A stretch of 63,004 bases of DNA, counting the filler, from Kipferlia bialata (Eukaryota), in assembly GCA_003568945.1 (NCBI GenBank). It is 5 parts of 5 records of this genome, joined end to end, with 100 filler letters (N's around TTAATTAATTAA, not from the genome) between each part and the next. Parts side by side here need not be neighbours in the genome. Positions count along the whole stretch, not along the records: positions 54,679 to 63,004 come from BDIP01000758.1; 4 more parts are not named here. One strand, written 5' to 3'. The notes under the pieces are model-generated. The model was not told the DNA's origin. It worked only from the letters and a program-made list of their open reading frames with translations, and searched no databases. Positions 37,496 to 63,004 of this stretch are shown here, piece by piece; within the stretch, counting starts at the first letter, position 1; the number at the start of each line of letters is the position of its first letter. The position numbers were made by a program, and so were the translations under genes.

Positions 37496-37521
37496 GAGAG
37501 GAAGAGGGGGAGGAGTCAGTG

Positions 37522-37560
<39 letters not shown>

Positions 37561-37996
37561 AGGTGTATGTGTTGGTTGTGTTTCTGCGGCATGTCAGTGG
37601 TCAGCTAGTGTCCGAGGGTGTACTAAACCCGTGTTCTGTTATCAAGTGTCAATAGATTGAGCTTAACTGTGTGGTGTGACTGTAACCAGTATTACTAGGT
37701 CCCCTTGGCAGTGTTAGTGATTGGTATGTGGTCATGCCCTCAACAAATCGTGTATGACACTGCTAGACCCCTGAGTCAGTATCAGATTGTCGGTGTCAGT
37801 TGGCACCTTCTCCATCATAGACAGAGCTACTAGTGCAAGTCAACGAGCTATCCCATTGCACTGCCGTACTCCCATTGGTATCAGTGCAAGTATAGCACTG
37901 GTGGCTTGGGGTCAGGCTGGGCTTGGGACTGAGAGGTCTCTGACACTGAGTGACTGAGTATGAGCCACTCCCTCGTGCCCCCAGGCAGGGGGGGTC

Positions 37997-38702: not shown

Positions 38703-38734
<32 letters not shown>

Positions 38735-39358: not shown

Positions 39359-39470
39359 GTACGTATCTCTCTCGCTCTCGCTCTCTCTTTCTGTCCTCCA
39401 CAAGATTTGACACGGATGTGTATATGTACTAGTATAAATTTCCCTTACCGATACACACATATGTATACAT

Positions 39471-39519
<49 letters not shown>

Positions 39520-39619
39520 NNNNNNNNNNNNNNNNNNNNNNNNNNNNNNNNNNNNNNNNNNNNTTAATTAATTAANNNNNNNNNNNNNNNNNNNNNNNNN
39601 NNNNNNNNNNNNNNNNNNN

Positions 39620-39668
<49 letters not shown>

Positions 39669-39797
39669 CAGAGGAGAGAGAAAGAGAGTCATACATATGG
39701 ATGACGAGTGATGGGTAACTTCACACCCATCACCTCAGACACAAAAGTCACACCACTCCATATATGGATATAGATGTATACGTGCATGTATATGTAC

Positions 39798-40297
39798 CTG
39801 GTCTTGTGGTGGTAGAGCATGGCCCTCTGCATCATGGGGATGGAGTCACCTCTCCACAGGATGAACACAAACTGAGGGTGAGGAGACAGGCAATGCAGGT
39901 ACCTACAACGTATAACAAGAGTACACCGACTGTAACCTTGGGCAATAGGAGTGCATATGTAGGTGTAAGTACCTTGACTCTGTGGGACTCGGCGTCACCA
40001 GCAAGGGTCCTGAACAGCACGTACACTGCCTTCTCCTCCTCAAACAGGTGAGTGAACTCATCAACGTCGTTACGGCCAGTGCCGATAACCTGAGGGTCAG
40101 ACACAACTACGTTGGTGCATGTATGATGCTCCTAATATGCACAAACCGACCTTGATGGTGTCCCTGGACCTGCCCTCGTAAGACAGGGCAACCCAGGACA
40201 GAAGGCCGTTCCTGACCTCCTGGAGCTGCTCCTCCACCTTAGGGAGATCCTGATATCAGAATAGAACTCTAACTGTTACCTCAAAGAGCAGGGTCAT
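39798..40297 (-). CDS. COTL1: Coactosin-like ADF-H actin-binding protein (3' end lost at scaffold end)
   Basis: MTLLFE|DLPKVEEQLQEVRNGLLSWVALSYEG...|VIGTGRNDVDEF..VYVLFRTLAGDAESHRVK|FVFILWRGDSIPMMQRA matches the coactosin GD.ES.R.KFVFI.W.G pattern. Confidence 0.8.
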
Positions 40298-40770
40298 CAG
40301 AAAGAGCATATGAAATCCCATTGCTTGGTAAAGAGCCAATCACCAACCCAAAACACACCCTTTCCAGCCAATCATACCCATGATCACACTCACCTCCACA
40401 AACATGTTGTCGAACTTGCTGGTCATCTTAATTGGACGCCTATTTGTTGGAGAGTTGACGTGGACAGAAGGCTCTCTCCGAGAATTGTCCGACTCATTGT
40501 CGGAAAGTCAGGGTTCCAAATGGAATGGAGCTTCCATTAGAGTACGATGAACCTACACACATAGATGCGGTACTTCTGTATGACTGTACTCCAAACCAAT
40601 ACAATGTGAGGTGGTGCCGACCTCAGGCCCATGCATACTGCTGTTTCGCTCTAACTTATCTGTCGGATGACTACACCCTTTCGCTAGCAAAAACCTGGGT
40701 GATCAGCTGGCTCTCTCTTTGTTGGTATAGGTGTAGCGACGACAGCAACTGATAGAGAGTACACCTGCAC

Positions 40771-41299
40771 ATGTGGGACACTGATGACATTATCTACCTG
40801 GTAAGTAGGTTTTAGTGTCTCTCCCTTGAGTATACGGTGTGCCACATTCATCGAGTAGGGTACTGCCCTATTCCTACTTCGACCATTACCCCCACCCCTC
40901 CACGCACACACATAGTTTCCCACATGAAACTACCTGGTACACAGTGTTCTGAAGCCTGTATGGTGTCTCATATCCCAGGACAGCCTAGCTGATCTAACGC
41001 TCTCTGCCCCACTAGAGGAGAGAGAGACAGAGCCAGAAGAGGAGAGAGTTCCTACTGCTATAGAGGGTCTGTGCGGAGGGGCAGCCACAGTCCTCAAGCT
41101 GAATGGGGATGAGTACACACTGGCGAGACCACTGGACAAGTCGAGTGTCGACTTCATCAGGTATGGTAATGGATGTGTAGACTCTGTACTATATCCTCCC
41201 ATTCTTTTGAGTGTCAGGCTCTCCCCCCCCCCCCCCCTTTCCACCCACCGCCCAGCACTACGATTTACAACTCGCACAGTTGTGTCTCTCTATCTACTC

Positions 41300-41339
<40 letters not shown>

Positions 41340-44300
41340 ACCCAATGATATCGTGTCCTGATGGGTGCTCCCTCATTCCTCATTCATCCCTCATCTCTCT
41401 CTCTCCCCCCCCCATCTTTCCCCCATGTCATCTCTGGATCCGCACCCTACATATATTCCATATATGTGGTTTCTCCCCCTTCCACCCAAATACCCTATCT
41501 CTCCTTATATATCTCCCTCTCTATACCTCTATCCACTCACTCACCGCAGGTCATCTCTGGGTCCACACCATGAATATACACTATATATATTTTGTATTCT
41601 CTCACACACTATACTATATCCACTGCCTCACCCCCAGGTCATCTCAGGCTCTACAGACGGTGTCATCAAGGTGTGGCGCAGGAAGGCAGAGACCACTGTG
41701 GAGTACCTCAAGCAGTTCAAGCACAAGGGTGGGTGATATAGTATGTATATAGTCGCACCTCTATATACGTACCTCTATATACACCCCTATATACGTACCT
41801 CTATGTACACCCTATTTACACACACTTGTATTCACTATATGTACCTCTAGCAGTTCAAGCAGAAGGGGTCATGCATTCATGGTGTATGTTATGTATAACT
41901 ATATAACTACTACGTGCATACACTCAATACCCGAGTATCACACCCAGTTCCAGCACAAGAGTAGGTGTGTGTATATACTATTACTCCATCCTCACCCCCC
42001 AGGTGGTGTTGTTGCCATCTGCGTGTCCACCTGTGACAGATACATGGCCACACTGTCTACAGACAAGACAATGCACGTATATGCACTGGACACAATGGGT
42101 AAGGGATATTGTATGTGTATGTAGATATAGTATATATGTAGAGAGGGAGAGGGGGAGAGAGAGAGTACATAACCACACTGGTCACAGACAAGACAATGTA
42201 TGTATATTCATGGAGAGATCACTAATGATCCTATACCCCTCACCCCAGACATTGTCAACACTGTCTCTCTTCCCCATGTCCCTTCTTGTGCCTGTTTCAG
42301 TCACCACCCCAGGGCAGGGGCCACCGTGTGTGTCGGTAGCAGTGTGAACAGGTATAATATGCATATATATATATATATATATGTAGTACAGTATATATAT
42401 AGCATCAGCTATCCTAGGGCAGGGGCCACGGTGTGTGTGGGTACTAGTGTGAACAGGTATAATATGCATATATATATAGTATATACAGTATATATATAGC
42501 ATCAGCTATCCTAGGGCAGGGGCCACGGTGTGTGTCGGTAGTAGCACTCACAGGTATATATGTATATATATATATATATATATGTTTTCCTCTCTCCCAT
42601 GGCCAGAGTGTGTGGGAATCATCATTCATCCCCCTGTTCCAATGTCTTACCCCAGCGGCATCTCCCTGATCAGCAGACATACTAACATCTATATATATAT
42701 ATATACATATGTGTATACATCTATGTCTGTGTCTCTATCTACCATCCCACCCCAGCGGCATCTCCCTGATCAGTATCCATACCAATGTATATACATATAT
42801 AATATATATATACATATATATATATACATATATAATATATATATATTATATATATATATATATATATACATGTATCTATACATCTACATCTATATCTACC
42901 CTCTAACCCAGCGGCATCTCCCTGATCCGTGCCCTGGCAGGGGAGAGAGAGGGGGACGAGGGCACAGGTAACTGTTGGTAGACGTGTACTATATACATGT
43001 AGGTACACTCCTGTATAAACATATGCATATGGACACTGGATGTGTGTATATGGATGCTGGATATATAGTCCAATCTGACCCCAGGCTTCAATGCGGACAT
43101 GGACTTTGACGAGGCAGGGCCCGAGGCAGAGCAGGGCCAGGAGAGGCAGGTGTGTAGTATGTAGTCTACAAAGCATTCACATATATATATATATATATAT
43201 ATCATTGGCAGAGGCAGTGCAGGGGCAGGAGAGGCAGGTATATGCATTGTATAGTATACATAGTACACACATATATATACCATCCAGATATTCAATATAT
43301 ATATACCTCACCCCCCAGACCGAGACCGACTCTGACCTCCCTGTCTAGTATATGTACACATCTGTACATCTCTACATAGTATGTATATAGTGTATACTAA
43401 TCGGATATACACCTCACCCCCCAGACCGAGACCGACTCTGACCTGCCCGACCCCGTCCTGAAGACACTCTCAGTGCACATACACCCGGTGGTGGGTACGT
43501 GCTTGGATAGTATGTGAATATATATACGTAAACACCCTGTGGTCGGTACGTGCTATTGAAGTACACACATCATACTGATACTGACAGAGTACCATTATTG
43601 TGTATATTTGCCATATATACAGTGTATCTCTTTCCTCACTCTCTCACTCCCTAACCCCAGCCCTTGGCTACTGTTATCAGTCCAACCTGCTTCTGTCAGT
43701 CGATGTGTCAGGCATGCCATGTCTACACGACATGGCAACACTCGCACCTCCAAAGTAAGGGTATTATATATATGAATAATATTACATGTATATATGTATA
43801 TATATATATACATAGAGAGTGTGTGTGTGTGTGTGTATGGATGTGTCAGGCATACCATGTCTACACGACATGGCAACACTCGCACCACCAAAGTATGTAC
43901 GTTATATATATGTATATACATACCATTCTCACCCCCAGGAAGACCAAGAAGGGCGTGACCCGTGAGTACATTGACCACACCACCGGACTGACCCTCCCCA
44001 CCCACACCCCTCCACTGAAGGTGTCGGTGTCCAGTCCCAAGAAGAGACAGAGGATCATTAGGTGCAGTGGTTGTGGAGTGAAAGTGTATTGTTACATTAC
44101 CCTCTCACCTCAACCTTGGCCGCAACCACGTGCTTGGCTTAGTATTCTCTCTCTATATATAACTATAGTGTAGTACGATAGCATATTTTGTACTCATACC
44201 CAGCCTCGGCCGCAACCCCGTGCTTGGCATCTCCCCCTCCCCTGATGGGTCCATGTATGCACTGAGCCATGCAGACTTTGTGACAACCAGTGTGCTCAAT

Positions 44301-46032
44301 GTGGTGGACGGGACAGTGACTAGCCTAGTAGATACAAAGGTATATACTGATACTGATACATATATATATATACATATATATATATACATGTATATATTGT
44401 ATATTGTATGCAGTGTGCTCAACGTGGTGGACGGGACAGTGACAACACTGCTAGACACTAAGGTATGGATGCGTGTGTGTAGTATAGTGGTTAGTATACC
44501 GATACCCTCACCCCTTAGGAGCTGAATCCAATATATCCAATCTTCATATCTATACCATGTCTCTACACCCTACCTGTCTGACCTTAGGAGCTGAAGGGAG
44601 GAGAGGCCAAGGCAAGGAGGGTCATTCAACATCTACTATACAATACTATAATATACCCATATATAGCTAGATACACTCCTTAACCTTAGGAGCTGAAGGG
44701 TGGGGAGGCCAAGGCAAGGAGGGACAGACTCATAGAGAGGCTGGTGACAAGGTGTGGGAGTATGACTATTCTATACTAGACTATGCCATATAAAGTATGG
44801 TTGTATTGTTCAAGATGTATGTGGATGTATAGGCAAGGAGGGACAGACTGACAGAGAGGCTGGTGACTAGGTACAGTATATATCACGCATATCCTCTATA
44901 CCTGTATCTCACCCCCCAGGTTTGGCAGGCGTAGAGAGGCCGTGCGGTCTGGCAAGCACCAGGACCCACTCCTCCCGGCATACCCTAGGTATCTACTATT
45001 CAATATATAGGTGATATAGTGCAAGTATTATACATATTATACTTACATGGACACCAAAATGTACCAGGACCCACTTCTGCCGGCATACCCTAGGTACCAG
45101 TGTGTATGTATGTATAGGAAACTGTATATAATCATTATATATGTACATATGTATCCCTCTCCCAATTCACGCCAGGGCTGCCTGCCTCTCCCCCTCTGAG
45201 TGTTCTCTCTCTCTCTCCCTCTCTTCTTATATCTCTATATGATCCATTGACATCAGGGCTGCCTGGCTCTCCCCTTCTCTTCTTAATCTCCCTTTATATG
45301 CATATATTACTATCACATTCCCATCAATTGACATCAGGGCCGCCTGGCTGTCCCCCTCTGAGTGTTTTCTCTCTCTCTCTCTCTCTCTCTCTCTTACTAT
45401 ATCTCTATATGATCTCTCACCCCCAGGGCTGCCTGGCTTTCCCCTTCTGAGTGCTCTTTCTCTCTCTCTCCCTCTTCCTATATCTCTATATGATCCATTG
45501 ACATCAGGGCTGCCTGGCTCTCCCCCTCTGAGCTGATGACCCCCCTGCGTGAGGGTGTGGGTGTGTGGCAGCAGGGGGTGGGGGAGGACGGGGCCCAGAC
45601 ATACTCTGTAGTCACGAGGTGAGGGAGTGTATATGCTGTATGCCGCAGTTGTGCAGACAGTATGAGTATCAGTATCCTGTGTGTCCCTCACCCTCACCCT
45701 CAGGGGTCTCAGGGCCGAGCTCTCTCTGATAGACTCCAGACTCACAGTGCTGTCAACCGCAGTCAGAACAGGTGTGATGATGAATATACTATATATATAT
45801 AGAGAGAGAATAGGAGAGAGAAAGAGTTTGTATAGACAGTAGACTCACAGTACTGTCAACCGCAGTCAGGACAGGTGTGGCAAAATATTGTTCATAAATT
45901 TCCATATTGCAGATATTCAATTACGTTGTGTGGATTCGTACCCCTCTATATAGCACATCTCCCCTACATCATCCCTCACCCCAGGCAGTGCGTCTCTCTC
46001 TCTCAACAGGTGTTGAAAGATACTATTGCGTA

Positions 46033-46070
<38 letters not shown>

Positions 46071-46389
46071 TATACCTTGTATAACATGACCGTACTTCAC
46101 CCCCCAGGGAGTGCGCCTGGGTCTTAGCTGTGCTACCATGTGGTATACATACATATATATATCTACACTGTATATCATGGCTATCCCTCACCCCCCAGGC
46201 AGTGCGTCTGGTGTTGTGACGTTGGACAGTCAGCAGACACTGCTCGGGGACAACCTCATGAAGGTAAGGGGGAGTGGTGTGTTATTGGTGTGTGCTTTGT
46301 AAGAAGTATGTAACTCCATCGATCCGCCCCTCCCCCACCCCCAGGCCGTGTCCCTAGGAAGGGTGCCCATATCAGACGTGGTCAGGTAT

Positions 46390-46441
<52 letters not shown>

Positions 46442-48954
46442 GGTATGGTATGGCTAGATATATATATAGCATAGCCACCATATCAGACGTGGTCAGGTAT
46501 GGGAGTGTTTGTAGATATAGCCGTTCCTCTCTCTACATATGATGTGTGTTACACTCACTCCCAGGGAGTCCATGCTGTTCTTCGAATCTTTTCAATCCAT
46601 AGTCACTCTCTCTCTCTCTATATATATATATCCTCTAGTGCCCTCACCCTAGGGAGTCGATGCTGTTCTTCCTGTCCCAGGGTGGAGCCAGGTTCTACAT
46701 AGCCAGCCAGAGGGGGCCCAAGGAGGAGGTAAATAGATATATATACATGTATATATATATGATTGGTATATATATATGTTTGTATACTATATATGTGCAT
46801 AGCCAGCCAGAGGGGGCCCAAGGAGGAGGTATACATGTGTATATATTGTATATTCATATATATAGTATATAGTGTATGCACATACACATTGTATATATAC
46901 ATAGCCAGCCAGAGGGGGCCCAAGGAGGAGGTGTGTAGTATATGTATGTATATATATATGTATTTATATATATATATAGTATGTTGTATATATGCATATA
47001 CACATTGTATATACATAGCCAGTCAGAGGGGGCCCAAGGAGGAGGTGTGGATGTATATAAGTATGGTATATATACATATATATAGTGAGTGTATAATGTT
47101 GTTATACATAGCCAGCCCGAGGGGGGCCAAGGAGGAGGTATACTCGGCCTAGTATGAGTAACAGTGTCAATGAGTATGTGTGTGTATCAATTGGTATACA
47201 CACTCACCCCAGGCCGTCAAGACCTCCTCGAGGGATGTGGTGATTGAGTCAGCTGTGGCATCGGGGGAGGCACAGGGGCACAAGCACAGGTGGGGTATAG
47301 TATACATATGTATATAATATATATCTATATGTAGAGAGAGAGAGAGAGAGAGAGATGGAGAGTGGCATCTGGGGAGGCACATGGGCACAAGCACATGTCG
47401 GCACACCTACTCTCTCTCACACCCACACTTATACATATACATTATAATAGAGACAGAGGGAAATGGAGAGAAAGGAGACAGTATCCAGTAATTGCAGTGG
47501 AGTTGACCCTGTCATCCGCAGTGTATATAGTCCTGTAGTAATACAGTATATACGCAAACATTACTTTGTATCATTCACCCCAGGACTGCTGAGACGGTGT
47601 CATCCACAGTGTATATGCATATGGTGTAGCGTATATTCACATATATGTATATGTATGTCTGTGTATAAACCCATACCCACCCCAGGACCGCTGAGACGGG
47701 TGTCATCCTGCACACCACCATGGGGGACATCGAGATAGAGTTCTACAAGGAGGTGGGTGTATTATATATGACTTTCATATATATTCCCCTCCAAAACTAT
47801 AAAGACTCTGTAAGGAGGAATGGGTCTAGTATATACATATATAGTACCCCCCATTTCCCTATTTAAATGTATTGGTATATTAGTTGAGTTCAAGAAGGTG
47901 GGAGTGGTGCATGGGCTATACGCTGTGTGAATAGTTTAGTATTATATTTTCATTATCTCCCCCCAGGCCATCAAGACTGTGTACAACATGGTCACTCTGT
48001 GCAAGAGACAGTACTACGACGGAGTCATATTCCACAGGATCATCAGAAACTTCATGGTGCAGGGTATGTGTAGAATATAGATATATTACATATCCATATT
48101 ACATATCCATGTATGTGAATACTATACCATGTATTCCAAAGTATGCTTGTATACTATGCCACAGGATCATCAGAAACTTCATGGTGCAGGGTATTTGTAT
48201 CAGTATCAGTATCATGGAGTGTATATGTACAGTATATACATGAATATACATGTATATATGTAAATATGTAAGTATATGTACGTTAACATGTATGTCTCAC
48301 TCCAGGCGGTGACCCCACCGGCACTGGCACAGGGGGCTCATCGGCATTCGGGGCTCCATTCGAGGTAAGGGGTCGTGGGTGTATATATGTATATATAGGT
48401 TCTTCCTCAGCTCTCTCTCTCTCTCTCCCTCTTCCTCACATCCCAGGATGAGATCATCAAGGGTCTGAGCCACACAGAGTTCACAGTGTCCATGGCTAAC
48501 TCAGGTATGGGTGGTGTGCATTTAGATACTATTGGAGGATAGTGTCTCCCTCTCTATCTAACCCCCAGGCCCCAACACCAACAACTCCAGTTCTTCATCA
48601 CAACCATATCCTCTCTCTCTCTGTCTCTCTCTCTCTCTCTCCGCCCCTCTCCCTCTGTCTCACTCTAGGCCCCAACACCAACAACTCCCAGTTCTTCATC
48701 ACCACCGTGGCCTGTCCCCATCTGGACGGGAAGCACACGGTGTTTGGGAGGGTGAAGAATGGGCAGAGGACAGTCAAGCAGATGGAGCAGGTGGGTATAT
48801 TGTACACTGTATTAGAGACTATATAGAGAGAGGGAGAGGGAGGTACATACATGCATCCATAGATGAATCCGCCCCCCACCGCCAGGTTGCCACCCGCGGC
48901 CTGGACAGACCCGTGGAGCCCATCATCATATCATCAACCACCTTGATCATATAG
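40771..48954 (+). CDS. PPWD1: Peptidylprolyl isomerase domain and WD repeat protein 1 (spliceosomal cyclophilin)
   Basis: [48 protein letters not shown] (WD40); [70 protein letters not shown] 48952-48954; start codon inferred. Confidence 0.92.
45173..45532 (+). repeat. Five-copy acceptor/exon-start array in PPWD1
   Basis: CAG|GGCTGCCTGGCTCTCCCCCTCTGAG-like units starting 45176, 45257, 45338, 45427 and 45508 (the live exon). Confidence 0.92.
46698..47139 (+). repeat. Five-copy exon-end/donor array in PPWD1
   Basis: CATAGCCAGCCAGAGGGGGCCCAAGGAGGAG|GT at 46698 (live), 46798, 46900, 47014, 47107, separated by TA/TG-rich spacers. Confidence 0.95.
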
Positions 48955-49231
48955 AGGGATAAAGACGTTCATCCCATAGAGAGGGAGTGACCCAGCCATT
49001 CATGAGTTGGTTGCATTGGGAAAATTTGGCTTTGTGTTTTGTGTAATAGATTGTTCATCATCACAATACGCTTGATATAGGGATTAGGGGCCAAGGTATT
49101 AAGTTATGTACTGTGTAATATTAATGATAGATATGTGTACAGTTCCCCTAGAATCGAGTAATTGAAGCAAATAGATGGCTGAGGTCAATCTCACAAATGC
49201 GCAGTGACCCTAGAATCGCGTAACTCTCTCA

Positions 49232-49314
49232 GCACGGATGGCCGAGGGGTTAAGGCGTCACGTTCAGGTCGTGATTGAGATTACTCAGCGTGGGTTCGAA
49301 TCCCACTTCGTGCA
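49232..49314 (+). tRNA. tRNA-Leu(CAG)
   Basis: Acceptor GCACGGA/TTCGTGC+A, A-box TGGCCGAGGGG, anticodon stem TCACG/CGTGA with loop TT-CAG-GT, long variable arm TGAG-ATTA-CTCA, T arm GTGGG-TTCGAAT-CCCAC, followed by TTTT. Confidence 0.95.
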
Positions 49315-49494
49315 GTTTTCAATAGAGAAGAGAGGCCGTAGAAAAGTATATATGTGGGTGAGAGTGTGGGTGTATCAATGATACATTGTTAATTGTACTA
49401 TGTCACTCTTTATTCATGGACTGTGCGGAAGAAGAAGCACAAAAGTAGCAGTGTCTTTTGAGTGGAAATATACTCCTCAATGCATAAAAATGAT

Positions 49495-52400
49495 TCAGAA
49501 AGATGAGCTAGAATCATAACTGGAACTGCTATCGTCAGAAAAGCTCTCAGTGTGGTTATTCCCACTTCTGACCACTGACATATTCCCTCCCACAGGTGGA
49601 AAGCCTATAGGGGTGGTACCAGAAACCTGAGAGTTAGTGGTATTGCTAACTCAGTATTGTATGATACTTGGCATCAGTATCAGTATCAGTATCAATGGGA
49701 GAGTACATACAGGAGGTGTATATAGCAGATAGTTCCCATAGAAGACGTATACATGTGCAGAAACTGTAAATTACTGACTGGTGTCTATATTCCAATACAT
49801 AGCTGTCAATTAATATGGCTGCATTTGAGAGTATTGGTCTACCCTTACCTGCATAGTAGATGGGGCAGGGGGATAGGTCGGTACTCCATGGGTACTAGGG
49901 GGTGCAGGGTAGACATCTTCCACGACCTAATTGGTAAGATACAGTAGATATAGATCCAACCTATGGTCTCCCGCTTATATTGGTGTGGAGTATTGTGTAT
50001 GGTACTATATATTGTGATTCATATTGTTCCTTATTGAGGAGTATCAGTAATAAAGTGTATGATTTCACACCTGAGTGTTACCTCCTGGACTCTGGTAGGC
50101 ATATGCAGAGGCGGTGTAGGGGTCCTAATGGTGAGTTGTACGGGCATACACTGCCTCTTAAACAGAGTTGGTGGTGGAGTAAGATGGTGGTACACAGAAG
50201 AGTTCTATACTACACTGCTATTATATACAAACATGCAATGATTACTAGCCACAGCGAATGGGCCCTGTGAGTTTGTTAAGGCAAAGGAAATATCAATAAA
50301 GTGTCACGTGCACTCTACTCTATCTGTATATACACATCGATATACACGCTTATAATCTGTGAGTATCTGCGTATCAGCTCACCTGAGCCTCAGGTACAGG
50401 CATAAGCGGCATATATATATATGTCTGTATTGACGTCTATACTGTTCGGCATTTGATGTGTCTGACCAGCACCCATGGTCAGGGCCACACACACATATAT
50501 ATATACATATTGTTATGCATATGTCAAGAGTATTACCTGGGCCACAGGTACCGGCATTGGCTGTATGTCAATGTCTGGCATTGCCTGTGTCCTACTCAGG
50601 GCCATACCCCCAAGGTCCAGCCCAGCTAGGTCTGCATCCGAGATGAAGTGGGCCTAGTGTTTAGTAGTAACTGAGCGGGTAAGGTAGCAATGTGTGTTCT
50701 TAACTTAATATTTAAGGGGAAAGGATCATGTGACATCAACCGTGCGGATATTCGTACTGAATTGAATCGGAAGAAAGGTCACACCTGCTGTCTGAGCTCC
50801 TCTCTTCTCTCTCTCTCCTCTCTCCTCTCCACCTCCTCCTTTCTCCTGACCAGTCTCTCCTGTGCTGCTAGGTTACGCCGCATCTCATCCTCTCTGGGGT
50901 TAGAGAACATGATATATGAATGAGTGTATACGTAACAGAAAGCAGTGCGTCGGATAAGAGTGGAGTTTCCTCACCTAGTTGCCTTGTGTTGATACTGTAC
51001 GGTATACATATACATATACATATATAGTTAAACATACATACCTTGCTGCCTCCCTGGCCACTGTCTGTCTCTGTAGAGTGCTAGAACCCGCAGTGCTACT
51101 GCACATCTGATTACCCTGGGTAAGAGGCAGGAAGACATAGTAGGCCCTTCTTTTAAGGGAATACGACATAGACAGTTTTCGATTTTGTGCCTCCCGTTAA
51201 GGCAGAGTTGTCAGTATGACACAATGTTGTTCTGTATACCTGGCCCCCCTCGATGTGCATGGGTTGGTAAGAGTCGCCCATACCCTGGTCACTTGTACTG
51301 TACACCCAGGGCTCATTAGACTGGTTGGGGTTATCGGGGGTCTCTCTTCTGACGTCAGATCTAAGGTCTAGCAGTATATAGATGCAAAACCGAAAAAAAC
51401 ACCTTACTCTCACCTATCACTTCACAATTTTACTGCAAAATATCAGCTCAGTAGAATATGAGACAAATAGTAAACTCCACACATAAAAGAACATGCCGTG
51501 GAGTAACTGATTCCCAACCCCACCTCTTTCTCCTAGATCTGACCCCCAGGTATATCACAGAAGCCCAGAAGCCACAGGTTAAGAGAAGGATACACACCTA
51601 ACGTCAGATATATACATGTGTATATACACATACATATATACACATACCCATTTACGGAGAGAGAGAGAGGATATCACCGTTGTGCATAAGCGCTAGGACG
51701 ATGGGTACTCATACCAGAGTTAGGATAATTACTATATACATAGAGAGAGAGAGAGAGAGAGTAAGATCCACATACATACAAATATCCAAATACAGTGTGC
51801 CTAAATATTGACTGCTGTATATATATACATGTTTAACATAGAGATAGAAGATACCGACTTACTATTTCGATGGTCTCGGTGTAACATGCACTGTCTATGC
51901 ACACATTACATGTAAAGAGGTACATGTGGAGAGACCCCGCATCAGAGGCAAAGGTCACTAGGGTGAGAGACATATATATCCATAGATATATATATATGCA
52001 TATACATATGTATATATAGAGAGTATGTGAAGTGGTACATTCATTAAGGAGCCAGCCTCAGAGGCAAAGGTCACTAGGGTGAGAGGGAGAGAGAGAGATA
52101 TATAGAGAGAACACGTAGGTGAGGTGGTATGTGTGTAGAGACGAGCTCTCAAAAGAGACAAGAATCACTGGGTGGAGACATATATATGGATAAACCCTAC
52201 ATCTAAACAGGTGGAGAAAGAGAGAAAGAAAGTGAGTATATTGGGGGTCAATCTATACATATGTATTATTGTATATGTATATGGAGAGAGTGTTTGAAGT
52301 AGTACATTTGGAAGTAGCCGGCATGAGGCTAAAGTGACTAGGATGAGACGCTCACGGGCATATACCCTATATCTAAAGAGGTTGGAAGATGCAAAGAGAG

Positions 52401-53506
52401 AGAGAGAATGACCCTGCATGAGAGACAAAGGTGACTGAGTCAGAGAGAGAGCGAAGGTAAGAAACAGAAACGGGGGATGTCGTGAGTGGAAGATAGATGT
52501 AAGAACCTGCACAAGGACTGAATACCTATGGCAGAAATAGAGAGAGTCTGTGTATTCGTACCGTATACACAGTTGCAGTGGTTGTCCAGGTCAGTGTTGG
52601 AGAGTTATAAGATTGTCACACCGTTATCAAATCTGTAAGAGTGTTCAATGATAACAGTAGGTATTGTCTCACCGTATACACAGTTGTAGTGGTTGTCCAG
52701 GTCAGTTGTGATATCGAAGAAGACATCGCCGGAGTCGGACTGGGGTAGGCAAACATAGTTAGTAATAGAATAGAAGGCATCTCAGAGCAGAGCAGATATA
52801 TATGTAAATGACTCATGTGTATACATACGCACCATCAGATACACGCTGTCCGATGTCTGGGAGGATGTGCAGTGGGCCTGACTGTAAGATACATATATAT
52901 AGATAAAGCAAGTATATATATACTACATACATGCACCACATACATAGACATATGTTCATGTATATATACAAATATATATATATATGTCTGGGAGGATGTG
53001 CAGTGGGCCTGACTGTAAGATACATATATATATACCACATACATACACCACATACATAGACATATGTTCATGTATATATATAAATATTTATATATGTCTG
53101 GGAGGATGTGCAGTGGGCCTGACCGTAAGATACTTATATATATATATATATATATATGGATAGATAGATAGAGATACCAATATATATAGACTACTATGAC
53201 GGAGACACCATGAAGTAGTTAAACGTAGATACACACAGAGCTATCTATGGATGATAGAGTCAATAGGACAATAGGAAGTTAGTCTCTTGCGGCCAGTTAG
53301 ATTTTTCTGACAGGTCACTATGACCCTAATTCTAAACAGTGTATGTCTATCCCAGAGGTGATAGTCGGAAACATTGCTACTTCTGTACACATATACATAC
53401 ACACATATATATATCTGACCTTGTACACACTGAGTATGTCTGTGCCATATGCAGTGGTTCCCACGCACTCTACTTCTCCATGGTGTGCATCATCAGGGTA
53501 GTAGAT
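49495..53506 (-). CDS. Hypothetical single-pass membrane protein, 5' part missing
   Basis: Exons IYYPDDAHHGEVECVG.., SDSGDVFFDITTDLDNHYNCVY, TM-like VCILLLTCGFWASVIYLGV followed by RSRRKR, charged helix EDEMRRNLAAQERLVRRKEE.., Ser-rich end ..DSSSSF-TGA; phases not all verified. Confidence 0.45.
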
Positions 53507-54885
53507 CTATGATGAGGATGATAAGAGGAAGTGTATATTGTGTAGTATATAGTAGTAGAGCAGGTGTCAGCAAGGGCTATACAAATATATATATGTCTCT
53601 CTCTATATAATTATGAATGTGGATATAGAAAGCGGAGGACATGTCAACATTGTTTTATCATCAGGGTAGCAGAGAAATGATGAGAATGATATATACACGT
53701 TGTGATGGGATAGACATTACAGAGGGGTGAGAATAGTTGTACCGCGTCTTTCAAGCGGAATCATTGGAATGGTAGAGAGTAGAAAGGGGGGGGGGGGAAG
53801 TAAGAGTATATCGATGTTGAATACCTTCCCCCCTTGTATGTACAGGTGACTCATTTGTTAACACTATATACCCACACTATATATATGGAGAACTGACTCA
53901 CCCATGTCTAAACCTATATCGGTGTCTATATCTATGTCTATATCTGTATCTATATCTAAATCTATGTCTATGTCTATGTCTATCTATAGCTCCAATTCTA
54001 TCTATATATATGAACTTACCCATCTGTCCTAATCTATCTGTATACCTATATATATATACAATATACTCAACCATCTGTACTGTGTGCTGGATGCATACCC
54101 TTTCACTCTCACACACTCTCTATACTACTACACTCCCTCTCTCTCCATACATATGTATATCTCCATCTGTACATATCTATATATGTACCTATATCTATCT
54201 ATCTATCTATGTATATGTATACAATATACTCACGCATATGTACTGTGTGCTGGATGCATACCCTTTCACTCACTCACACTCCCTCTCTTCAAATACAATC
54301 CCAAACTATATATATATATATATGCACTCACCCATCTGTACTATGTACTGGAAGCATCAACTATCGCACACTCACACTCTCTCTATACCCCTACATTCTC
54401 TCTCTCTATATCTACATTCTCTCTCTGTTTATAGACAGACTTAACCATCTGTCTTATTCTATCTATATACCAATATCTATATATGTAAACAATATACTGA
54501 CCCATCTGTACTATGTGCTGGAAGCATCAACTATCGCACAATCACACTCTCTCTATTCATATACATTCTCTCTCCCTCNNNNNNNNNNNNNNNNNNNNNN
54601 NNNNNNNNNNNNNNNNNNNNNNTTAATTAATTAANNNNNNNNNNNNNNNNNNNNNNNNNNNNNNNNNNNNNNNNNNNNGTTGGAAACACCCCCCCCCCCC
54701 AAACCCCCCCCCCCCCCCCCACTATACTCTGCCTCTCCCTCTCTCTCTAGCCCTCTCTCTCTTTTTGTCTAACTATTAGGAGACTGTCCCCATTTGATCA
54801 CCCAGTTCCTCTCTCTCTCTCATTCTCTCATTCTCTCTCCCCCCTCCCCCCGCCCCTCTCTCAATATTTATACCTCTCACCTCAG

Positions 54886-57759
54886 GAAACCATCACCAGT
54901 CTGACCACCCAGTCCCACTCTGCCTGTCACAACACAATACTGGGCAGTGCCACGGTATGTGCACATCACCATACTATAATCCACTACATGATACATATAT
55001 GATACAATATATACAATATGATACTGGGCAGTGCCACGGTGAGTGTATATTGCTCTACTCCAAACCTACACAACAATCCACATGTGGATAGTGGTACAAG
55101 TGTGTACTACTCTGCCTGACGAATGTACACTTATTGTTCTGCCCCTTGGATCCTCGAAGAGACATGCAATGCCATAAGCTATATACTGTATATTACAGGT
55201 GTAGTATAGTGCATTGTATTGTGGTTGTTACTATGCTCACCCATAGGTCCTGGAGGAGACGTGCAGTGCCATGTTCAGAGGGGAGGATGATGCAAAGTGA
55301 GTACATAAACTATATGACACTCAGTGTATAAGACCTCTGTATGTGAGTATGTCATTCTATTCTTGCCACTTGAGGTGCCATGTTCCGGGGAGGATGGTGC
55401 AAAGTGAGTCTGTACTGTATAGAAACTCATGGATAGATATATGTGATTGCCCGTAACCTGACTTCCTGATAGCTTAGTGGAGCCTACATATATATGTGTA
55501 TAGTCTATATATATATACTCATCCATAGGCATATTATAGCCCTTAGCATGAGTTCTCTCACTATTACAGTCGCTCACCTTTAGGCATATAATAGCACTCA
55601 GCATGACTGCCTGTCAGTTGGGTGCAGCAGGGCATATATATATACCTACATATATATATACATACATATATATATACATATGCTCACTATCAGGCACATA
55701 ATAGCCCTTAGTATGACTGCCTGTCAGTTGGGTGCAGCTGGACAGCCGATGCCATGTGACCTACAGAGGGTACTAGGTATAGTGTAGACATATACATACA
55801 TACATATATACATATATATATATATGTCTGTGTGTGTATAGTGTTTTCAGCCTCAGAGACATGCCCTATCTCTCTCTACATATATATTTATGCAAATTTG
55901 CATCCAGACCTCGCCTCCAGGGCCGGAGACCTATCCTCTCTCTCTCTCTCTCCCTTTGGGCAAACTTTCTCTCTAATACATTCTACCCTCAGACATCCCC
56001 TCCAGTGTCAGTCACACTCTATATATTCAACTATATATTCCACCCCCCCCCCTCTTCTGTATATTGTACTCACCCCAGACCTCTCCTCGAGTGTCAGAGA
56101 CATATCCCTCACAACACTGGGGCAGAGTGAGGAGACTGAGAGGAATAGGTACGCATATATAGTAATGTATATGTATGTATATCGAAGCATTGTGTGTAGT
56201 AGAATGTTGTGTCCCTCACAACACTGGGGCAGAGTGAGGAGACAGAGGGGAGGAGGTACGGTACATCATGTACTCATACGTGTGTACATGATGGAGTGTG
56301 GTCAAGTAAAGTCAATTCTTATCTCTAGGGCTGAGCTGGCCTTCTCCGTGTCCCAGTGTATCTCCCTCCCTCTCTCTCAAAACTCCTACCATCCACATAC
56401 TCACACTCACTATCAGGGCTGAACTGTCTTTCCCTTAAATATGTATATGTATCTGACCATACATCTCATCTACTAGGGCTGAGCTGACCCTCTCTGTGTC
56501 CCAGTGCCTGTCTGACCTGTACACCAGCCCAACAGGTGAGTGAATATGTATAGTATGAAGTGACTATTCTTACTGTATTCAAATAGTGTATAGTTTTAGC
56601 CATGCACACTCTCTTTCTCTCTCACCCTCCCGCTATTTCACTTGTATACAACAACCACCTGTCCACCCTGGGTCAGGTCTATATAGTGTACAGTATACTA
56701 TACAGATACTAATTTTATAGATACTATGCTAACCACTAGGCTACCTAGTCTATAACAGCCATCTGTCCACTGTGGGTCAGGTCCATAATTCATATGATAT
56801 ACATACACTATATACATATATATGTATAAATGAATAGTATATCTATACAATACACACTCTTACACTCAGGATACCTTGTATACAACAGCCACCTGTCCAC
56901 TGTCGGTCAGGTCTGCTTCTACGTGGCCCATGATGCATTCAATGACAGGTACACAAACACTCACTCTCCCTCTCTCTTTGTCTATATATATGTGTACTCT
57001 CTCTATGTATGTATATACACTTGTTGGAATGCTTCCACGTGGCACACGACGCATTCTCAGACAGGTACTCTCTCTCTCTGTATATAGACATATATATATG
57101 TATATAAACATATATATATGTTTATATATGTGTGTGTGTGTGTTCTTCTCACTCTGTACTTATTTCCAGAGTCTCCGCCGTGGCTGACCAGGCACTGCAG
57201 ACAGCTGCAGAGCTATCCCAGAGCATACAGGTATGTATATACACTCTATATGGTGCATCTCTCTCTCTTCATGTGTCTCTCTGACCCCCAGACCTCGGTG
57301 TCTGACCTGAGGGACTCGGTCTCAGATGGTGAGTACACATTACTAGTATATGTACATATAGGCCGGTCTGGCCCTCCAGGCACGTAGATATGTGCGTGTG
57401 TCAGAATGTATATATATATATGATGTACATATACTTACCTTAGGCATGGCCGGCCTTGCCCTCCAGGCACAGCTGACAGCACAGCAGATGGGGGATCAGT
57501 TAGGGGATTTAAACAATAGAGGTGTGTTATGATATATATATAGAGAGATAGAGAGAGAGAGAGGGGGGGGGGATGACAGCACATCTGAATGGGGGTCAAC
57601 TATATGTCTGAATGAGAGAGCTATGTTTTATATCAAACTATATACTAATATTACTATTCCCCTACTGTGAATGAAATCGATACTATTACATCTGCTCACA
57701 TCCAGCCTCTGAGATCAGCATTCAGCAGGCTGTGATTCATTTATCTACAATACTATAGT

Positions 57760-57793
<34 letters not shown>

Positions 57794-60700
57794 GTATGTA
57801 TATATATGTATATATATGCTAACCCCCAGCCTCTGAGATCAGCACCCAGCAGGCAGTGATAGTGGACATGCAGCAGGTGTGTATGTATGCATATATGTAT
57901 ATAATTGTATATGTATATATATATGTGTGTGTGTGTGGGGAGGGGGCATGTACAGGGCTCTATCAATAGTGTTTATGACTATTGTTACAATTATATCTGC
58001 TTATATCTGTATTTATATGTATGCAGTGATATATATGCAATGTACAATGTGACCAAGTATTCAGTGATATTTACATACAAATACCGATGTATATGTATAT
58101 CTCAGAAGATGGTGGGACGCTTCCTAATCGAAGAGACTTCTCTCTCTCTCCCCTCTGTCCCCTAGTTACACCCCAGGGTGTCATATCCCTGATCGAAGAG
58201 ACCCTGGACGGTGCAATACAGACTGCGCTTGAGCACCTGATAGGGATACAGGATATCACGCTGGGTCTACACGGGAGGTATACTCTCTCTCTTTCTCTCT
58301 CTCTCTATATATGTATATACTTGTATATATATTTATTCTTCTCTGACTCTATCTATGTATTTATTCTTCTCTAACTCCAGTATGGCCTTGATGCAGTCCC
58401 AACTACAGTTTGACAAGGCATCTCTCTCTCTCTCTCATATCAGTATGGCCTCTATGCAGTCCCAGCTGCAGATCGACAAGGCAGAGCTGGTGGCATTGCA
58501 TAGAGAGGTACAGTGTGTAATAATACATACATACATATATATATATATAGTTACTATATAGTTACTATATAATATAGTATCTATATAATAAAATGTAGAG
58601 AGAGAGAAGGTATAGATTGACAAGGCAGAGCTGGTGGCACTGCATAAGGAGGTATAGTATTGAGATATATATACATATATATATGTGTGTGTGTATGTAT
58701 AGAGAGAGAGAGCGAGATGGAGATCGACAAGGCAGAGCTGGTGGCACTGCATCGAGAGGTATACATGTAGTATGTATATATAAATGTGTGTGTATATGTA
58801 TGTATAGAAGAGAGGGAGAGAGAGAGACATAGGGAGGTACAGATCAATATATATTTATATACTTACTTATGTATGTATATATATATAGAGACCCATAAGG
58901 TACAGATTGACAAGGCAGAGCTGGTGGCACTGCATAGGGAGGTATTACAACATCAAGTGGTGTATTCTTATACTATAATATAGTGTATAGTATGTAACCA
59001 GCTGCAGATCGACAAGGCAGAGTAGAAGTACATGTAGGGTGAGAGAGAGCAGGACTGACATTGCATAGAGTTGAGACTTGTGTATTGGGGTGGAAGTGTT
59101 TCTCTCATTGTCTCGAATCCATGTATAATTGATATTGAGAGGTACTAACACCCAGGGCATTGAGCAGAGGCGTGCACTGCTAGACTCCCCTCTCTCTCTC
59201 CCGCTATATCATTGATATGTAGAGTAATGAATATATATGTGTGTACAAACATACACTCACCAGTCCATTGAGCAGAGTAGTTGTATATATAGATGTATGG
59301 GAATATAGTCATTACATGTATACACTCACCAGTAGGGCATTGAGCAGAGGCGTGCACTGCTCGAGGACCAGTCAGAGCTACTGCAGATGTCTAGGGTATG
59401 GTTATATATAGTATATACTCATTTACTGCAGTCGTATTTTGTACATTACTCTAGCAGTACACAAATAGTTTAGTAAATAGTATACAACTGTATACTAGGA
59501 CCTATCAGGAGCATCATGCTGCCTTAGCTGAGTTGGAGAAGGACACTGCGTATAGATACTATTTACTCTATTCAATAATTATATCTATATATATGTATAT
59601 ATATCACAAATCATCTCCATACGTATATTCACCCCCAGCAACATAGAGATGCCATGGCTGAGCTGGACAAGGACACAGCTGTGGTCAGCGCACGCATCAA
59701 CAACATCGAGGATGGGATAGATAGCGCTGCGAAGGTACGATGGAAATACAAGTATTGAGGACCCGATATACAAATAGTATACTGCAGTGTTCAGCACCCG
59801 TATCAGCGGGATATAGTACGGGATAGACAGTGCAGCAAGGGTATCCAGTAGCTATGCAGCCATCTATCTCTCTCTTTCTCTTTCTCTCTCTCCCTCTACA
59901 CCCTTATTAGAGGTTCTCAGTGATATGCGTGAGAATTCAGAGGAGACCATACTTCTCTCTCTCTCTCTCTCTCTCTACACCCTTAATATCAGGTCCTTAG
60001 TGATATGCGTGAGAGTGCGGAGGAGACCAGCGAGACGACAGTCAAGATATTGAAGGCTCAGGTGTGTGAACTAACACTTCAAATGTGTATATACGAGTTA
60101 CAATTACAAGAGATCCATCACGTAAGTGACAGCAAATAGAAACACATTCTATAGTGAAACTGTATCTTGAAGTGCATACTATTATTGTTTCGGAGATTAA
60201 CCCCAGGAGGCCGTTGGTCAGCTCATGAGTGTGCTGCCATTCGTCACAATGTCAGGGTATGTGCATGTATATATATAGTNNNNNNNNNNNNNNNNNNNNN
60301 NNNNNNNNNNNNNNNNNNNNNNNNNNNNNNNNNNNNNNNNNNNNNNNNNNNNNNNNNNNNNNNNNNNNNNNNNNNNNNNNNNNNNNNNNNNNNNNNNNNN
60401 NNNNNNNNNNNNNNNNNNNNNNNNNNNNNNNNNNNNNNNNNNNNNNNNNNNNNNNNNNNNNNNNNNNNNNNNNNNNNNNNNNNNNNNNNNNNNNNNNNNN
60501 NNNNNNNNNNNNNNNNNNNNNNNNNNNNNNNNNNNNNNNNNNNNNNNNNNNNNNNNNNNNNNNNNNNNNNNNNNNNNNNNNNNNNNNNNNNNNNNNNNNN
60601 NNNNNNNNNNNNNNNNNNNNNNNNNNNNNNNNNNNNNNNNNNNNNNNNNNNNNNNNNNNNNNNNNNNNNNNNNNNNNNNNNNNNNNNNNNNNNNNNNNNN

Positions 60701-62887
60701 NNNNNNNNNNNNNNNNNNNNNNNNNNNNNNNNNNNNNNNNNNNNNNNNNNNNNNNNNNNNNNNNNNNNNNNNNNNNNNNNNNNNNNNNNNNNNNNNNNNN
60801 NNNNNNNNNNNNNNNNNNNNNNNNNNNNNNNNNNNNNNNNNNNNNNNNNNNNNNNNNNNNNNNNNNNNNNNNNNNNNNNNNNNNNNNNNNNNNNNNNNNN
60901 NNNNNNNNNNNNNNNNNNNNNNNNNNNNNNNNNNNNNNNNNNNNNNNNNNNNNNNNNNNNNNNNNNNNNNNNNNNNNNNNNNNNNNNNNNNNNNNNNNNN
61001 NNNNNNNNNNNNNNNNNNNNNNNNNNNNNNNNNNNNNNNNNNNNNNNNNNNNNNNNNNNNNNNNNNNNNNNNNNNNNNNNNNNNNNNNNNNNNNNNNNNN
61101 NNNNNNNNNNNNNNNNNNNNNNNNNNNNNNNNNNNNNNNNNNNNNNNNNNNNNNNNNNNNNNNNNNNNNNNNNNNNNNNNNNNNNNNNNNNNNNNNNNNN
61201 NNNNNNNNNNNNNNNNNNNNNNNNNNNNNNNNNNNTGTTACTGTATGTATGTACATATATGCAGTAATGTCTGTCCTTCTATCTGGCAGTGACTGTGGTG
61301 CTGACAGTTATAGCTGGCTGTATTAGAGGTATGTCCAACACCATTTTCTAATTAATACTGTCCTTGCGGGGTGTATTAGAGATAGGATATAGACATTCAT
61401 ATACACATTCATACATTCATATATGGGTATATATACACCAGTGTCTGTCCGTCTCTCTGGCAGGGTAGAGTACTCACTGATACTGATACTGTTACTGGTT
61501 AACATGTGTCCCTCTGCAAATAGCACATATACATTCACTGCCTAGATATTTCATAACTCTGTCTCTAGTCTATTCATGTTCATGTAAAACTTAATATTTG
61601 CATTATGTCCCATCACCTTGCATCTCTCTCTCTATCTCTCTCTCCTACACATTTACATTGACACATAGGCTCCAGGTCCCGTCCTCTTGTCTACAAGAGT
61701 CCCCTCCTTGTATATACCATGTGCCATTTGTCATAATATGAACAAGCATACTAACCACTAGGTTCGAGGTCCAGGCCCCTTGTCTACATGACTATTGGTG
61801 CCGTCACAGAGGCAAGCACGAGACAGGTGTGTATAGATACTCTCTCACACACACAAACCCATACTTCATATGTACATACATTCTGGAGAGAGGTAGAGAA
61901 TAGTGATGCATAACTCTCTCACACCTGCCCGACTGCAAATCTTCGGAACTTGTACATATCTGTATCTCTCTTCTCTCTCTCTCTCTCTCGTTCACTTATA
62001 GTATTCCAATACGACATTTTCCTTAATGATCATTTAGAGTACTTATTCACATGCCCTCACTGCCTCTGTTATCTCTCTCTCGATATATATTTATATATAT
62101 CGATTCATGTATATTCCATATATGTCTATATTCCGATATATGTGCATGTGTATACCTGTCTCATCCCTTGGCCCTAGCCGCCTCTGTTCTGTTGAGCCTG
62201 GACATGTCTCTTTCTCTCTCCCTTTCTCTGTATATATATATACATATAGAGTGTCTGACTAATCTTAGGCACTTGCCGCCTCTGTCCTGTTCAGCCTTGA
62301 CGTGGGTGCCACAGACACAGAGTGGACACCGTTCGTAGGTGTGATACTCTGATACGTACTGGTCAGTTAGACTCATTATGTGCACTGTCTATTCAGCAAT
62401 GTGGTCTTACCTAAGGTACTAATCGGATGTTCCTCCTTGACGCCTGTGTGTGGAGTGTCAGACTCATATTCACACTGGGCGGACTGAGTGCATTATTGAG
62501 ATCGGCTGGGTGAGTATGCTTGTAATTATTGAATGTACATTCATGTGTATATACATACTCATTATGTACATTCATGTGTATGAATGTATTCACACTGGGG
62601 GGTTTGAGTGCGTTTTTGAGATCAGCTGTGTGTGTTATACACACTAATCTCTATATATGTCCAAATTATCATCTTACTCACTATTCATTGACTCACCCCC
62701 AGCGTAGTGTCTGGTGAGAACAGGGTGACAGGGTGGGATGTCAGATATACTCATGTAGTATATTATATATATATGCTGTATCTCTCATGATTTACATTAT
62801 TGACTCACCTCTAGGGTTGTGTCTGGTGAGAACAGGGTGACTGGGTGGGACGTGGATGTCATCAGACGGGCTATGGGCAAGGAATAG
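54886..62887 (+). CDS. GEX1: GEX1/KAR5/Brambleberry family nuclear-envelope fusion protein (5' end and one internal block in gaps)
   Basis: Cys-rich domain SACHNTILGSAT|VLEETCSAM..DAK|HIIALSMTACQLGAAGQPMPC..SVSQCLSDL..GYLVYNSHLSTVGQVCFYVAHDAFNDR, long coiled coil, then hydrophobic segments TVVLTVIAGCI, SRPLVYMTIGAVTE, CVWSVRLIFTLGGLSALL. Confidence 0.8.
58381..59020 (+). repeat. Exon-echo cluster around GEX1 exon 58444-58507
   Basis: 5'-half copy at 58381; 3'-half plus GT copies 58615-58651, 58722-58758, 58905-58941; partial copy ~59000-59020. Confidence 0.92.
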
Positions 62888-63004
62888 ATGGAAATGGGTT
62901 TATGTGTCATATTATAGATTGCATACGAAATGCAGGAATACATATTGTATACTCATCTGTGACTCCAGATACAAATGTACCCTCCATACACACACATATG
63001 CCCT

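What the first reader, a model, noticed from the sequence alone, without database searches (positions are those of the whole stretch)
56641..57064. Echoes differ from the live exon almost only at synonymous sites
Seen: the GEX1 echo 56740-56783 vs the live exon from 56870 differs at GGC/GGA, CTA/CTT, GTC/GTA, TAT/TAC, CAT/CAC and GTG/GTC, six synonymous and zero replacement changes over 15 codons. The same bias holds at SepSecS 17432-17809 (AGG/AGA, CTG/CTC, CCT/CCC, GTG/GTT), PPWD1 44292-44462 (five synonymous plus S/T, V/L), GEX1 55528-55745 and GEX1 58444-58941. A dead-on-arrival duplicate should accumulate mostly replacement-site changes. Inference: the echoes were under coding selection for most of their divergence, so they are pieces of other alleles or former live exons, or are still sometimes translated.
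Basis: partly seen in the sequence, partly recalled or inferred. Interest (0 to 1): 0.9.

Follow-up and report, generated by a model that had tools for sequence, protein, structure and literature searches.

The report
Exon echoes archive lost alleles
Half the introns examined in this stretch of the protist Kipferlia bialata hold short, one-ended copies of their neighbouring exons, spliced out where RNA was checked, that differ from the working exon at silent positions more than a dead copy should, likely because they are pieces of other working alleles captured during failed DNA break repair.

Summary
Observation confirmed but overstated. The window is Kipferlia bialata. 59 of 116 modelled introns hold 111 echoes: an acceptor plus exon head upstream, or an exon tail plus donor downstream. 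At the finding, one DNA contig spans echoes and exon at 100% identity; the single RNA-type contig splices past both upstream echoes. Pooled dN/dS is 0.24 (0.19-0.30) against 0.41-0.56 for simulated dead-on-arrival copies. Still, 204 of 428 changes are replacements and stops occur at the neutral rate, so the echoes are now dead. The echo nearest the exon carries private silent changes (17 of 103 fourfold against 15 of 401 nondegenerate sites), which rejects echoes as frozen ancestors of the live exon. dS is flat with rank while dN rises. Intron flanks are mostly unrelated, and the ~68-nt spacers mirror each other in composition. Best reading (0.5): aborted repair off a diverged allele, sealed with filler DNA, kept only when the copy has one splice site. 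Against: this DNA shows no second allele. The scan noted similar echoes in a sea urchin, where dead-on-arrival sufficed; here it does not.

The parts
56477..56535 (+). Live GEX1/Kar5-like exon upstream of the echo-bearing intron
   Evidence: P0002 maps letter for letter; RNA-type contig covers it
56536..56869 (+). 334-nt GT..AG intron holding both upstream echoes
   Evidence: Joint 'skips 334' in the X2 contig; X1 contig spans it at 100%
56641..56680 (+). Far upstream echo (exon nt 5-44), acceptor AG lost; S>N, V>L; shares CTT GTA TAC CAC with the live exon
56738..56783 (+). Near upstream echo: own branch-like motif and AG plus first 44 nt of the exon; 6 silent, 0 replacement changes
56784..56869 (+). 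G-poor spacer ending in the live acceptor, unrelated to the echo's own acceptor flank
56870..56948 (+). Live exon
   Evidence: P0002 mapping; X2 contig, 0 other letters
56949..57029 (+). Spacer from the live donor to the downstream echo
57030..57066 (+). Downstream echo: last 35 nt of the exon plus GT; 3 silent codons, Y>H, N>S
   Evidence: not covered by the laid contigs
57170..57230 (+). Next live exon
   Evidence: loose end of the X2 contig reads its first 30 nt
56327..56358 (+). Upstream echo of the exon at 56477
   Evidence: X1 'goes back' joint fits it
55446..55634 (+). Three upstream echoes of live exon 55694-55776; two have silent changes only, the farthest has stops
58379..59022 (+). 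One upstream echo, live exon 58444-58507 and four downstream echoes
17319..17931 (+). SepSecS cluster: four upstream echoes, live exon 17753-17809, one downstream echo; all four combinations of two dimorphic blocks occur
44411..44464 (+). PPWD1 downstream echo of live exon 44204-44339 (5 silent, S/T, V/L)
9468..63004 (.). Window-wide set: 111 echoes in 59 of 116 modelled introns, on both strands, in 4 of the 5 linker-separated pieces

Best explanation
The echoes are real, one-ended copies of exon boundaries inside introns, skipped in the one RNA-type contig laid, and they likely derive from other working alleles captured by aborted homologous repair that was likely sealed with filler DNA. Shown: each echo is about 33 nt of exon (14-65) with usually one splice site, separated from the next copy by a ~68-nt spacer. 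Downstream echoes always precede upstream ones (19 of 19 introns with both), around a core that looks like an ordinary intron. Inferred step 1: a break near an exon boundary is repaired by strand invasion of a diverged homolog, where only the exon still matches; synthesis crosses one splice site and stops. Inferred step 2: the ends are joined by polymerase-theta-type end joining, which adds G-poor CT/TA-rich filler at the free 3' end; this would explain why upstream spacers resemble the reverse complement of downstream spacers. Inferred step 3: selection keeps only products whose extra copy lacks a partner splice site, so that the spliceosome, predicted to work by exon definition, ignores it. 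The echo starts life about 0.2 silent changes per site away from the live exon and then decays neutrally (about 0.07 so far). Whether the break falls in the exon (echo = old resident piece) or in the intron (echo = foreign piece) is not resolved.
For: Real DNA and skipped in RNA at the finding. dN/dS 0.24, CI 0.19-0.30, against 0.41-0.56. Fit of 'fixed silent offset 0.20 plus decay' -lnL 370.5, proportional model 372.5, dead-on-arrival 385.8. In 22 multi-echo families dN rises from near to far (0.054 to 0.096) while dS does not (0.39 to 0.30). Echo-echo fourfold/nondegenerate ratio 3.1 (1.95-4.7). Near-echo-private changes 17 of 103 fourfold against 15 of 401 nondegenerate sites, P=2e-5; ladder simulations P<=0.00025. 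SepSecS copies show all four combinations of two dimorphic blocks. 14 of 50 SepSecS replacements are residues seen in at least 10% of 137 orthologs, against 16% expected. Echo splice sites are mostly strong (72% of donors and 68% of acceptors reach the live 10th percentile), yet only 15 of 99 flanks match the live flank against 85-100% if co-copied at d 0.15-0.33. Mirror composition: divergence upstream spacer vs reversed downstream spacer 0.013, vs unreversed 0.039 (dinucleotides); GA runs in 12 of 54 downstream and 0 of 57 upstream spacers. Partner site missing: 1 of 50 upstream echoes has a usable donor (control 12%), 4 of 49 downstream echoes a usable acceptor (control 31%). K. bialata lacks Ku70, has PolQ and Dmc1; fornicates lack Rad51A (PMC8516963). 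Aborted SDSA sealed by polymerase theta makes tandem duplications in C. elegans (PMC8654963). Synonymous diversity of 0.20 and exon-focused crossovers exist in Schizophyllum (PMC4576712, PMC4209137).
Against: No second allele is visible: the X1 contigs show no other letters and flat depth over both exons at 80% likeness, and each of three protein searches returned one single-member cluster. The required silent diversity of about 0.2 is at the top of what is known and is unmeasured in this species. The offset model beats the proportional model by only 2 log units. The echo-echo interval touches 2 (P=0.03). The mirror composition could partly come from selection against the missing splice site. 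Flank divergence at d 0.6 with 10% indels would already drop the match rate to 50%. 7 of 48 sibling spacer pairs are homologous, so some echoes are plain unit duplications and not independent. Known theta-sealed duplications are larger (about 100 bp to 10 kb) and sister-templated. Only 523 nt were checked against contigs; eight of eleven gene models have no database protein behind them except GEX1b, and only one intron has direct RNA support.
Confidence: 0.5

Rival explanations
1. The template is a diverged second gene copy (homeolog or paralog, perhaps since lost) or an archive of older variants recycled through echo arrays, not an allele from a hyperdiverse population.
For: Needs no extreme population diversity and fits the lack of a second allele at the laid locus. 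Alternating states along arrays (CTCTC, TGTGT) fit two source types. Some units are duplicated whole.
Against: One protein per search, each a single-member cluster. Conversion between echo and live exon alone cannot push the fourfold/nondegenerate ratio above 2 (argument), and 3.2 is seen. No whole genome was held, so other copies could not be sought.
Confidence: 0.2
2. Dead-on-arrival tandem duplicates of the gene's own boundary, with the live exon changing faster at silent sites (higher exonic mutation rate, or error-prone re-copying filtered by selection).
For: Simplest origin; needs no second allele; stops at neutral rate. The proportional model is only 2 log units worse. This reading sufficed for a sea urchin case in the scan's notes.
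Against: Needs a live rate about 2.6 times the echo rate. Predicts dS rising with echo age; it does not. Predicts no silent excess private to the nearest echo; 17 of 103 against 15 of 401 seen. Predicts co-copied flanks; 1 of 9 echoes identical to the exon has one.
Confidence: 0.13
3. Echoes are remnants of whole-exon duplicates that were spliced mutually exclusively, both under selection, until one lost a splice site.
For: Explains silent bias, kept splice signals and diverged flanks; spacer length is close to a minimal intron.
Against: 0 of 111 echoes is full length, though the intact stage would have to last longer than the dead stage. Spacers do not look like ordinary introns.
Confidence: 0.08
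4. Echoes are still translated at low level, or joined by recursive splicing.
For: Some echoes can be forced into frame by a gene finder, and one is annotated as an exon in P0003. X2 holds 0.18 of the region's words against 0.115 exonic.
Against: 10 stops; replacements at near-invariant residues (8 of 50); lengths not enriched for multiples of 3 (32 of 111); no excess of GT-starting echoes (9 of 50 against 6 of 50); RNA-type contig skips them.
Confidence: 0.04
5. Assembly artefact that strings haplotypes in tandem.
For: Fragmented short-read-like contigs rich in microsatellites; X1 may be the window's own source, so it is no independent sample.
Against: A separately assembled 1348-nt contig spans both echoes at 100% and depth 446; X1 holds 0.95 of sampled words while about 0.095 of words span truncated echo ends; no duplicate was found with both splice sites and full length.
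Confidence: 0.03

Closest known systems
Tandem duplications from aborted SDSA sealed by polymerase theta (C. elegans helq-1; BRCA1-type)
   Same: Direct tandem copy after one-ended templated synthesis, with insertions at the junction (PMC8654963, passages read); the species has PolQ and lacks Ku70.
   Different: Units here are about 105 nt, tied to exon boundaries, occur in a wild-type genome in half the introns examined, and differ from the resident copy at silent sites, which a sister template cannot give.
Partial or internal gene duplication across exon-intron junctions (dead pseudo-exon relics)
   Same: One-ended copies of a boundary lying dead in the intron; a sea urchin case is in the scan's notes. 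Gao and Lynch 2009 is recalled, not read.
   Different: There the silent share fitted dead-on-arrival (43 of 107); here 224 of 428 does not, and the intron flank is not co-copied.
Intron gain by tandem duplication of an AGGT-containing segment
   Same: Duplication that supplies splice sites (PMC3265369, abstract read).
   Different: No new intron is formed; the RNA-type contig uses the outermost sites and removes the duplicates.
Mutually exclusive duplicated exons
   Same: Tandem exon copies with silent-biased divergence (recalled).
   Different: No full-length copy in 111; one splice site only; stops present.
Recombination in hyperdiverse Schizophyllum commune
   Same: Silent diversity 0.20 and crossovers concentrated in conserved exons (abstracts of PMC4576712, PMC4209137).
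   Different: Those abstracts describe normal crossovers, not intronic echoes; diversity in K. bialata is unmeasured.

Membership tests
Dead-on-arrival partial duplicate | Copy excluded from mRNA and decaying | tested here: met
   Skipped in the X2 contig; 10 stops in 204 replacements against 3.4-4.5% simulated
Dead-on-arrival partial duplicate | dN/dS against the live exon about 0.4-0.55 | tested here: not met
   0.24, CI 0.19-0.30
Dead-on-arrival partial duplicate | Intron flank copied with the exon piece | tested here: not met
   15 of 99 flanks match against 85-100% expected
Mutually exclusive exons | Two full-length copies, each with both splice sites | tested here: not met
   0 of 111; longest 88%
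Mutually exclusive exons | Both copies found in mRNA | tested here: inconclusive
   One contig uses the live copy only; contigs drop rare forms
Intron gain by tandem duplication | New intron between duplicated AG|GT sites | tested here: not met
   Joint 56535-56870 removes both echoes although both contain CAGGT
Recursive splicing sites | AG|GT ratchet points at echo acceptors | tested here: not met
   9 of 50 echoes start with GT against 6 of 50 live exons; intermediates not testable
Theta-sealed tandem duplication after aborted HR | Direct tandem copy with inserted junction DNA | tested here: met
   All echoes direct; spacers form a distinct mirror class
Theta-sealed tandem duplication after aborted HR | Junction microhomology and insertions templated from the flanks | not tested
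   Junctions were listed but not scored; they have also decayed
Theta-sealed tandem duplication after aborted HR | Dependence on PolQ | not testable with these tools
   Gene listed for the species; needs genetics
Captured allele | Echo-specific silent states segregate in live exons of other haplotypes | not testable with these tools
   Only one sample found; it shows no other letters at the laid locus

The most novel reading that the evidence does not exclude
Kipferlia bialata grows its introns by a recurrent repair accident that captures exon ends from other alleles and pads them with newly made, strand-symmetric filler. One genome then archives many past alleles, records outcrossing at a silent diversity near 0.2 in a group where sex has never been seen, and forces a short-intron protist to splice by exon definition.
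Probability: 0.3. Interest if true: 0.9.

Novelty: new variant of a known kind. Interest (0 to 1): 0.72.

Why it matters
If true, a single assembly holds a dated sample of alleles: silent distance gives diversity, replacement distance gives age. That would make outcrossing testable in metamonads, where no sexual process has been observed (PMC8516963, passage read). It offers a new route of intron growth: each echo adds about 105 nt and echo number tracks intron length (rho 0.85). It shows a spliceosome passing over strong inner splice sites in a genome of ~85-nt introns. It may be the scar pattern of repair without NHEJ and Rad51A. In practice, echoes corrupt the public gene models, as in P0003.

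Tried and rejected
No whole genome is held, so all counts are from this window. No listed holder was on record as RNA; X2 is RNA by guess, supported by its spliced joint. Only contigs were available, no raw reads, and only 56440-56962 was laid. RNA editing: 0 other letters over the two exons. mRNA as template: live flanks do not resemble the neighbouring exon (0.19 against 0.25 random; 0.24 against 0.23). Recursive splicing: no GT enrichment. Formal four-gamete test on fully shared columns: 0 of 1 pair, no power; the SepSecS case is read from the alignment. Upstream-versus-downstream overlap test: 17 short overlaps, dominated by ragged ends, uninformative. Strict alternation of two haplotypes: suggested at fourfold sites (near 17, far 11, live 6) but reversed at twofold sites (12, 21, 7), so not claimed. 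GC at fourfold sites, echo-covered against uncovered: no consistent shift. The automatic gene finder took echoes as exons; I removed these by hand and dropped the 49450-54570 gene, PGK-like and eIF4B-like models and the first two PPWD1 exons before counting. The representatives search found no SepSecS above 50% identity among the 150 listed, but closer ones would hide in the query's own cluster. Pfam gave no family for P0002 above cut-off. No paper describing these echoes came up; the library lacks most subscription journals, and the genome paper's supplements were not read.

Full report
Source. Three exon queries each returned one protein, 100% identical and named Kipferlia bialata by its source: P0001 (cyclophilin-type with WD40; the label PPWD1 is inferred), P0002 (hypothetical) and P0003 (SepSecS). 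The window is five pieces joined by N linkers. No whole genome was held. Labels for the other genes (DUF2431-like, calcineurin-like, ADF-like, helicase-like) are my reading of translations and come from no call.

Catalogue. I mapped P0001-P0003 letter for letter, predicted other genes, removed echo micro-exons by hand and kept 11 models with 116 introns. Each exon end was aligned to its adjacent intron at DNA level, blind to frame. Decoy introns gave 1 hit in 662 queries at the threshold used. There are 111 echoes in 59 of 116 introns and at 78 of 232 boundaries: 57 upstream, 54 downstream, 99 reaching the splice site. Three genes with 18 introns have none, and the first piece has none. Echoes are 14-65 nt, median 33, never full length. 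Spacers have a median of 68 nt. In 19 of 19 introns with both types, downstream echoes come first. Intron length rises about 105 nt per echo.

Is it real? At 56440-56962 one X1 contig of 1348 nt matches end to end with no other letter. The single X2 contig joins 56535 to 56870 and runs on into the modelled neighbours. X1 may be the window's own source, so this checks the assembly, not a second sample. Contigs drop rare forms, so low-level echo use is not excluded.

The bias. Pooled: 224 silent and 204 replacement changes, dS 0.33, dN 0.08, ratio 0.24, with 10 stops. Bootstrap over 60 exons gives 0.19-0.30. Four dead-on-arrival settings, 25 runs each through the same aligner, gave means 0.41-0.56 and a minimum of 0.32. 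So the bias exceeds the proper null, but the echoes are decaying: stops are 4.9% of replacements against 3.4-4.5% simulated, and 8 of 50 SepSecS replacements hit near-invariant columns. Replacements are a mixture; they are also more ortholog-like than neutral (P=0.004, some rows not independent).

Which lineage carries the silent changes? In 22 multi-echo families dN rises from the nearest echo to farther ones while dS does not; the ratio of ratios is 2.2 (1.3-4.2). At sites where the live exon and the far echo agree, the near echo alone differs at 17 of 103 fourfold and 15 of 401 nondegenerate sites (P=2e-5). Any model in which echoes are successive frozen states of the live exon predicts 5-6. 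The finding is such a case: 56641 shares CTT GTA TAC CAC with the live exon and 56740 is the outlier. The SepSecS copies combine two dimorphic blocks in all four ways. The echoes therefore have coding histories of their own. A fixed silent offset of 0.20 plus decay of 0.07 fits best, though only 2 log units ahead of a proportional model.

Flanks and spacers. Echo splice sites are mostly strong, but similarity to the live flank fades after about 7 nt at donors and 14 nt at acceptors. Only 15 of 99 flanks match, including 1 of 9 where the exon part is identical. Upstream spacers are G-poor, downstream spacers C-poor, and each is closest to the reverse complement of the other; the skew is strongest at the cut end of the echo. 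The core between the innermost echoes looks like a plain intron. Upstream echoes lack a donor (49 of 50) and downstream echoes lack an acceptor (45 of 49), beyond controls, though the acceptor lack is matched by composition alone. Seven of 48 sibling spacer pairs are homologous, showing later duplication of whole units.

Mechanism. Shown: real, one-ended, skipped at one intron, decaying, silent excess on the echoes' own branches, new flanks, mirror spacers. Inferred: repair off a diverged working copy, aborted after one splice site, joined with filler, filtered by splicing. The species lacks Ku70 and has PolQ and Dmc1; fornicates lack Rad51A. Dmc1 stabilises mismatched joints (PMC6719624, abstract). 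Aborted SDSA sealed by polymerase theta gives tandem duplications. Silent diversity of 0.20 has a precedent. The main weakness is that no second allele is visible in this DNA, although the species is reported as diploid from k-mer peaks. The diversity would have to lie in the population or in the past.

Papers seen. PMC5874029: parts 1-2 of 6 and passages. PMC8516963: passages and supplement rows. PMC8654963, PMC9933649: passages. PMC6719624, PMC4576712, PMC4209137, PMC3265369: abstracts. Others: search listings only. The genome paper's main text has no hit for 'duplicat' or 'heterozyg'; its supplements were not read. Searches turned up no description of this layout.

Verdict. A real, window-wide intron architecture that I could not find described, with a silent bias that the ordinary explanation does not cover. 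It works like theta-sealed tandem duplication but fails the tests for dead-on-arrival duplicates, mutually exclusive exons and intron gain. New variant of a known kind; interest 0.72.

Noticed in passing
window 21015-21041 and 18309-18355: Database protein P0003 treats a downstream echo as an exon, giving VGGALLTAP twice, and skips a conserved exon. Echoes mislead gene prediction.
   Followed up: partly
window 18355-18544: My SepSecS model is three residues shorter than most orthologs here. The in-register reading would need an intron ending in AT, four bases before the AG. Unexplained.
   Followed up: partly
window 54700-60270: X2 holds 0.18 of sampled words but only 0.115 of 31-mers are exonic. 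The excess may be simple repeats, retained introns or DNA.
   Followed up: partly
window 1-9367 and 24553-34000: No echoes in three modelled genes (18 introns), and none by self-comparison in these stretches; their introns are short. Echo load differs strongly between genes.
   Followed up: partly
window 49450-54578, minus strand: Unmodelled gene with large echo families whose spacers are homologous (52853-53157, 53979-54578), left out of the counts.
   Followed up: no
window 54886-62887: GEX1/Kar5-like gene, a karyogamy family, in a group where sex has not been observed.
   Followed up: partly
window 49232-49314: tRNA-Leu(CAG) just after the PPWD1-like gene.
   Followed up: yes
window 9368-9467, 24453-24552, 39520-39619, 54579-54678: 100-nt N linkers with a central 12-mer join pieces of about 15 kb that end in C or G runs; the pieces need not be neighbours.
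   Followed up: yes
window 56417-56435: A short third copy of the exon-56477 head with its own acceptor, seen by eye but below the score threshold; the count of 111 is a lower bound.
   Followed up: no
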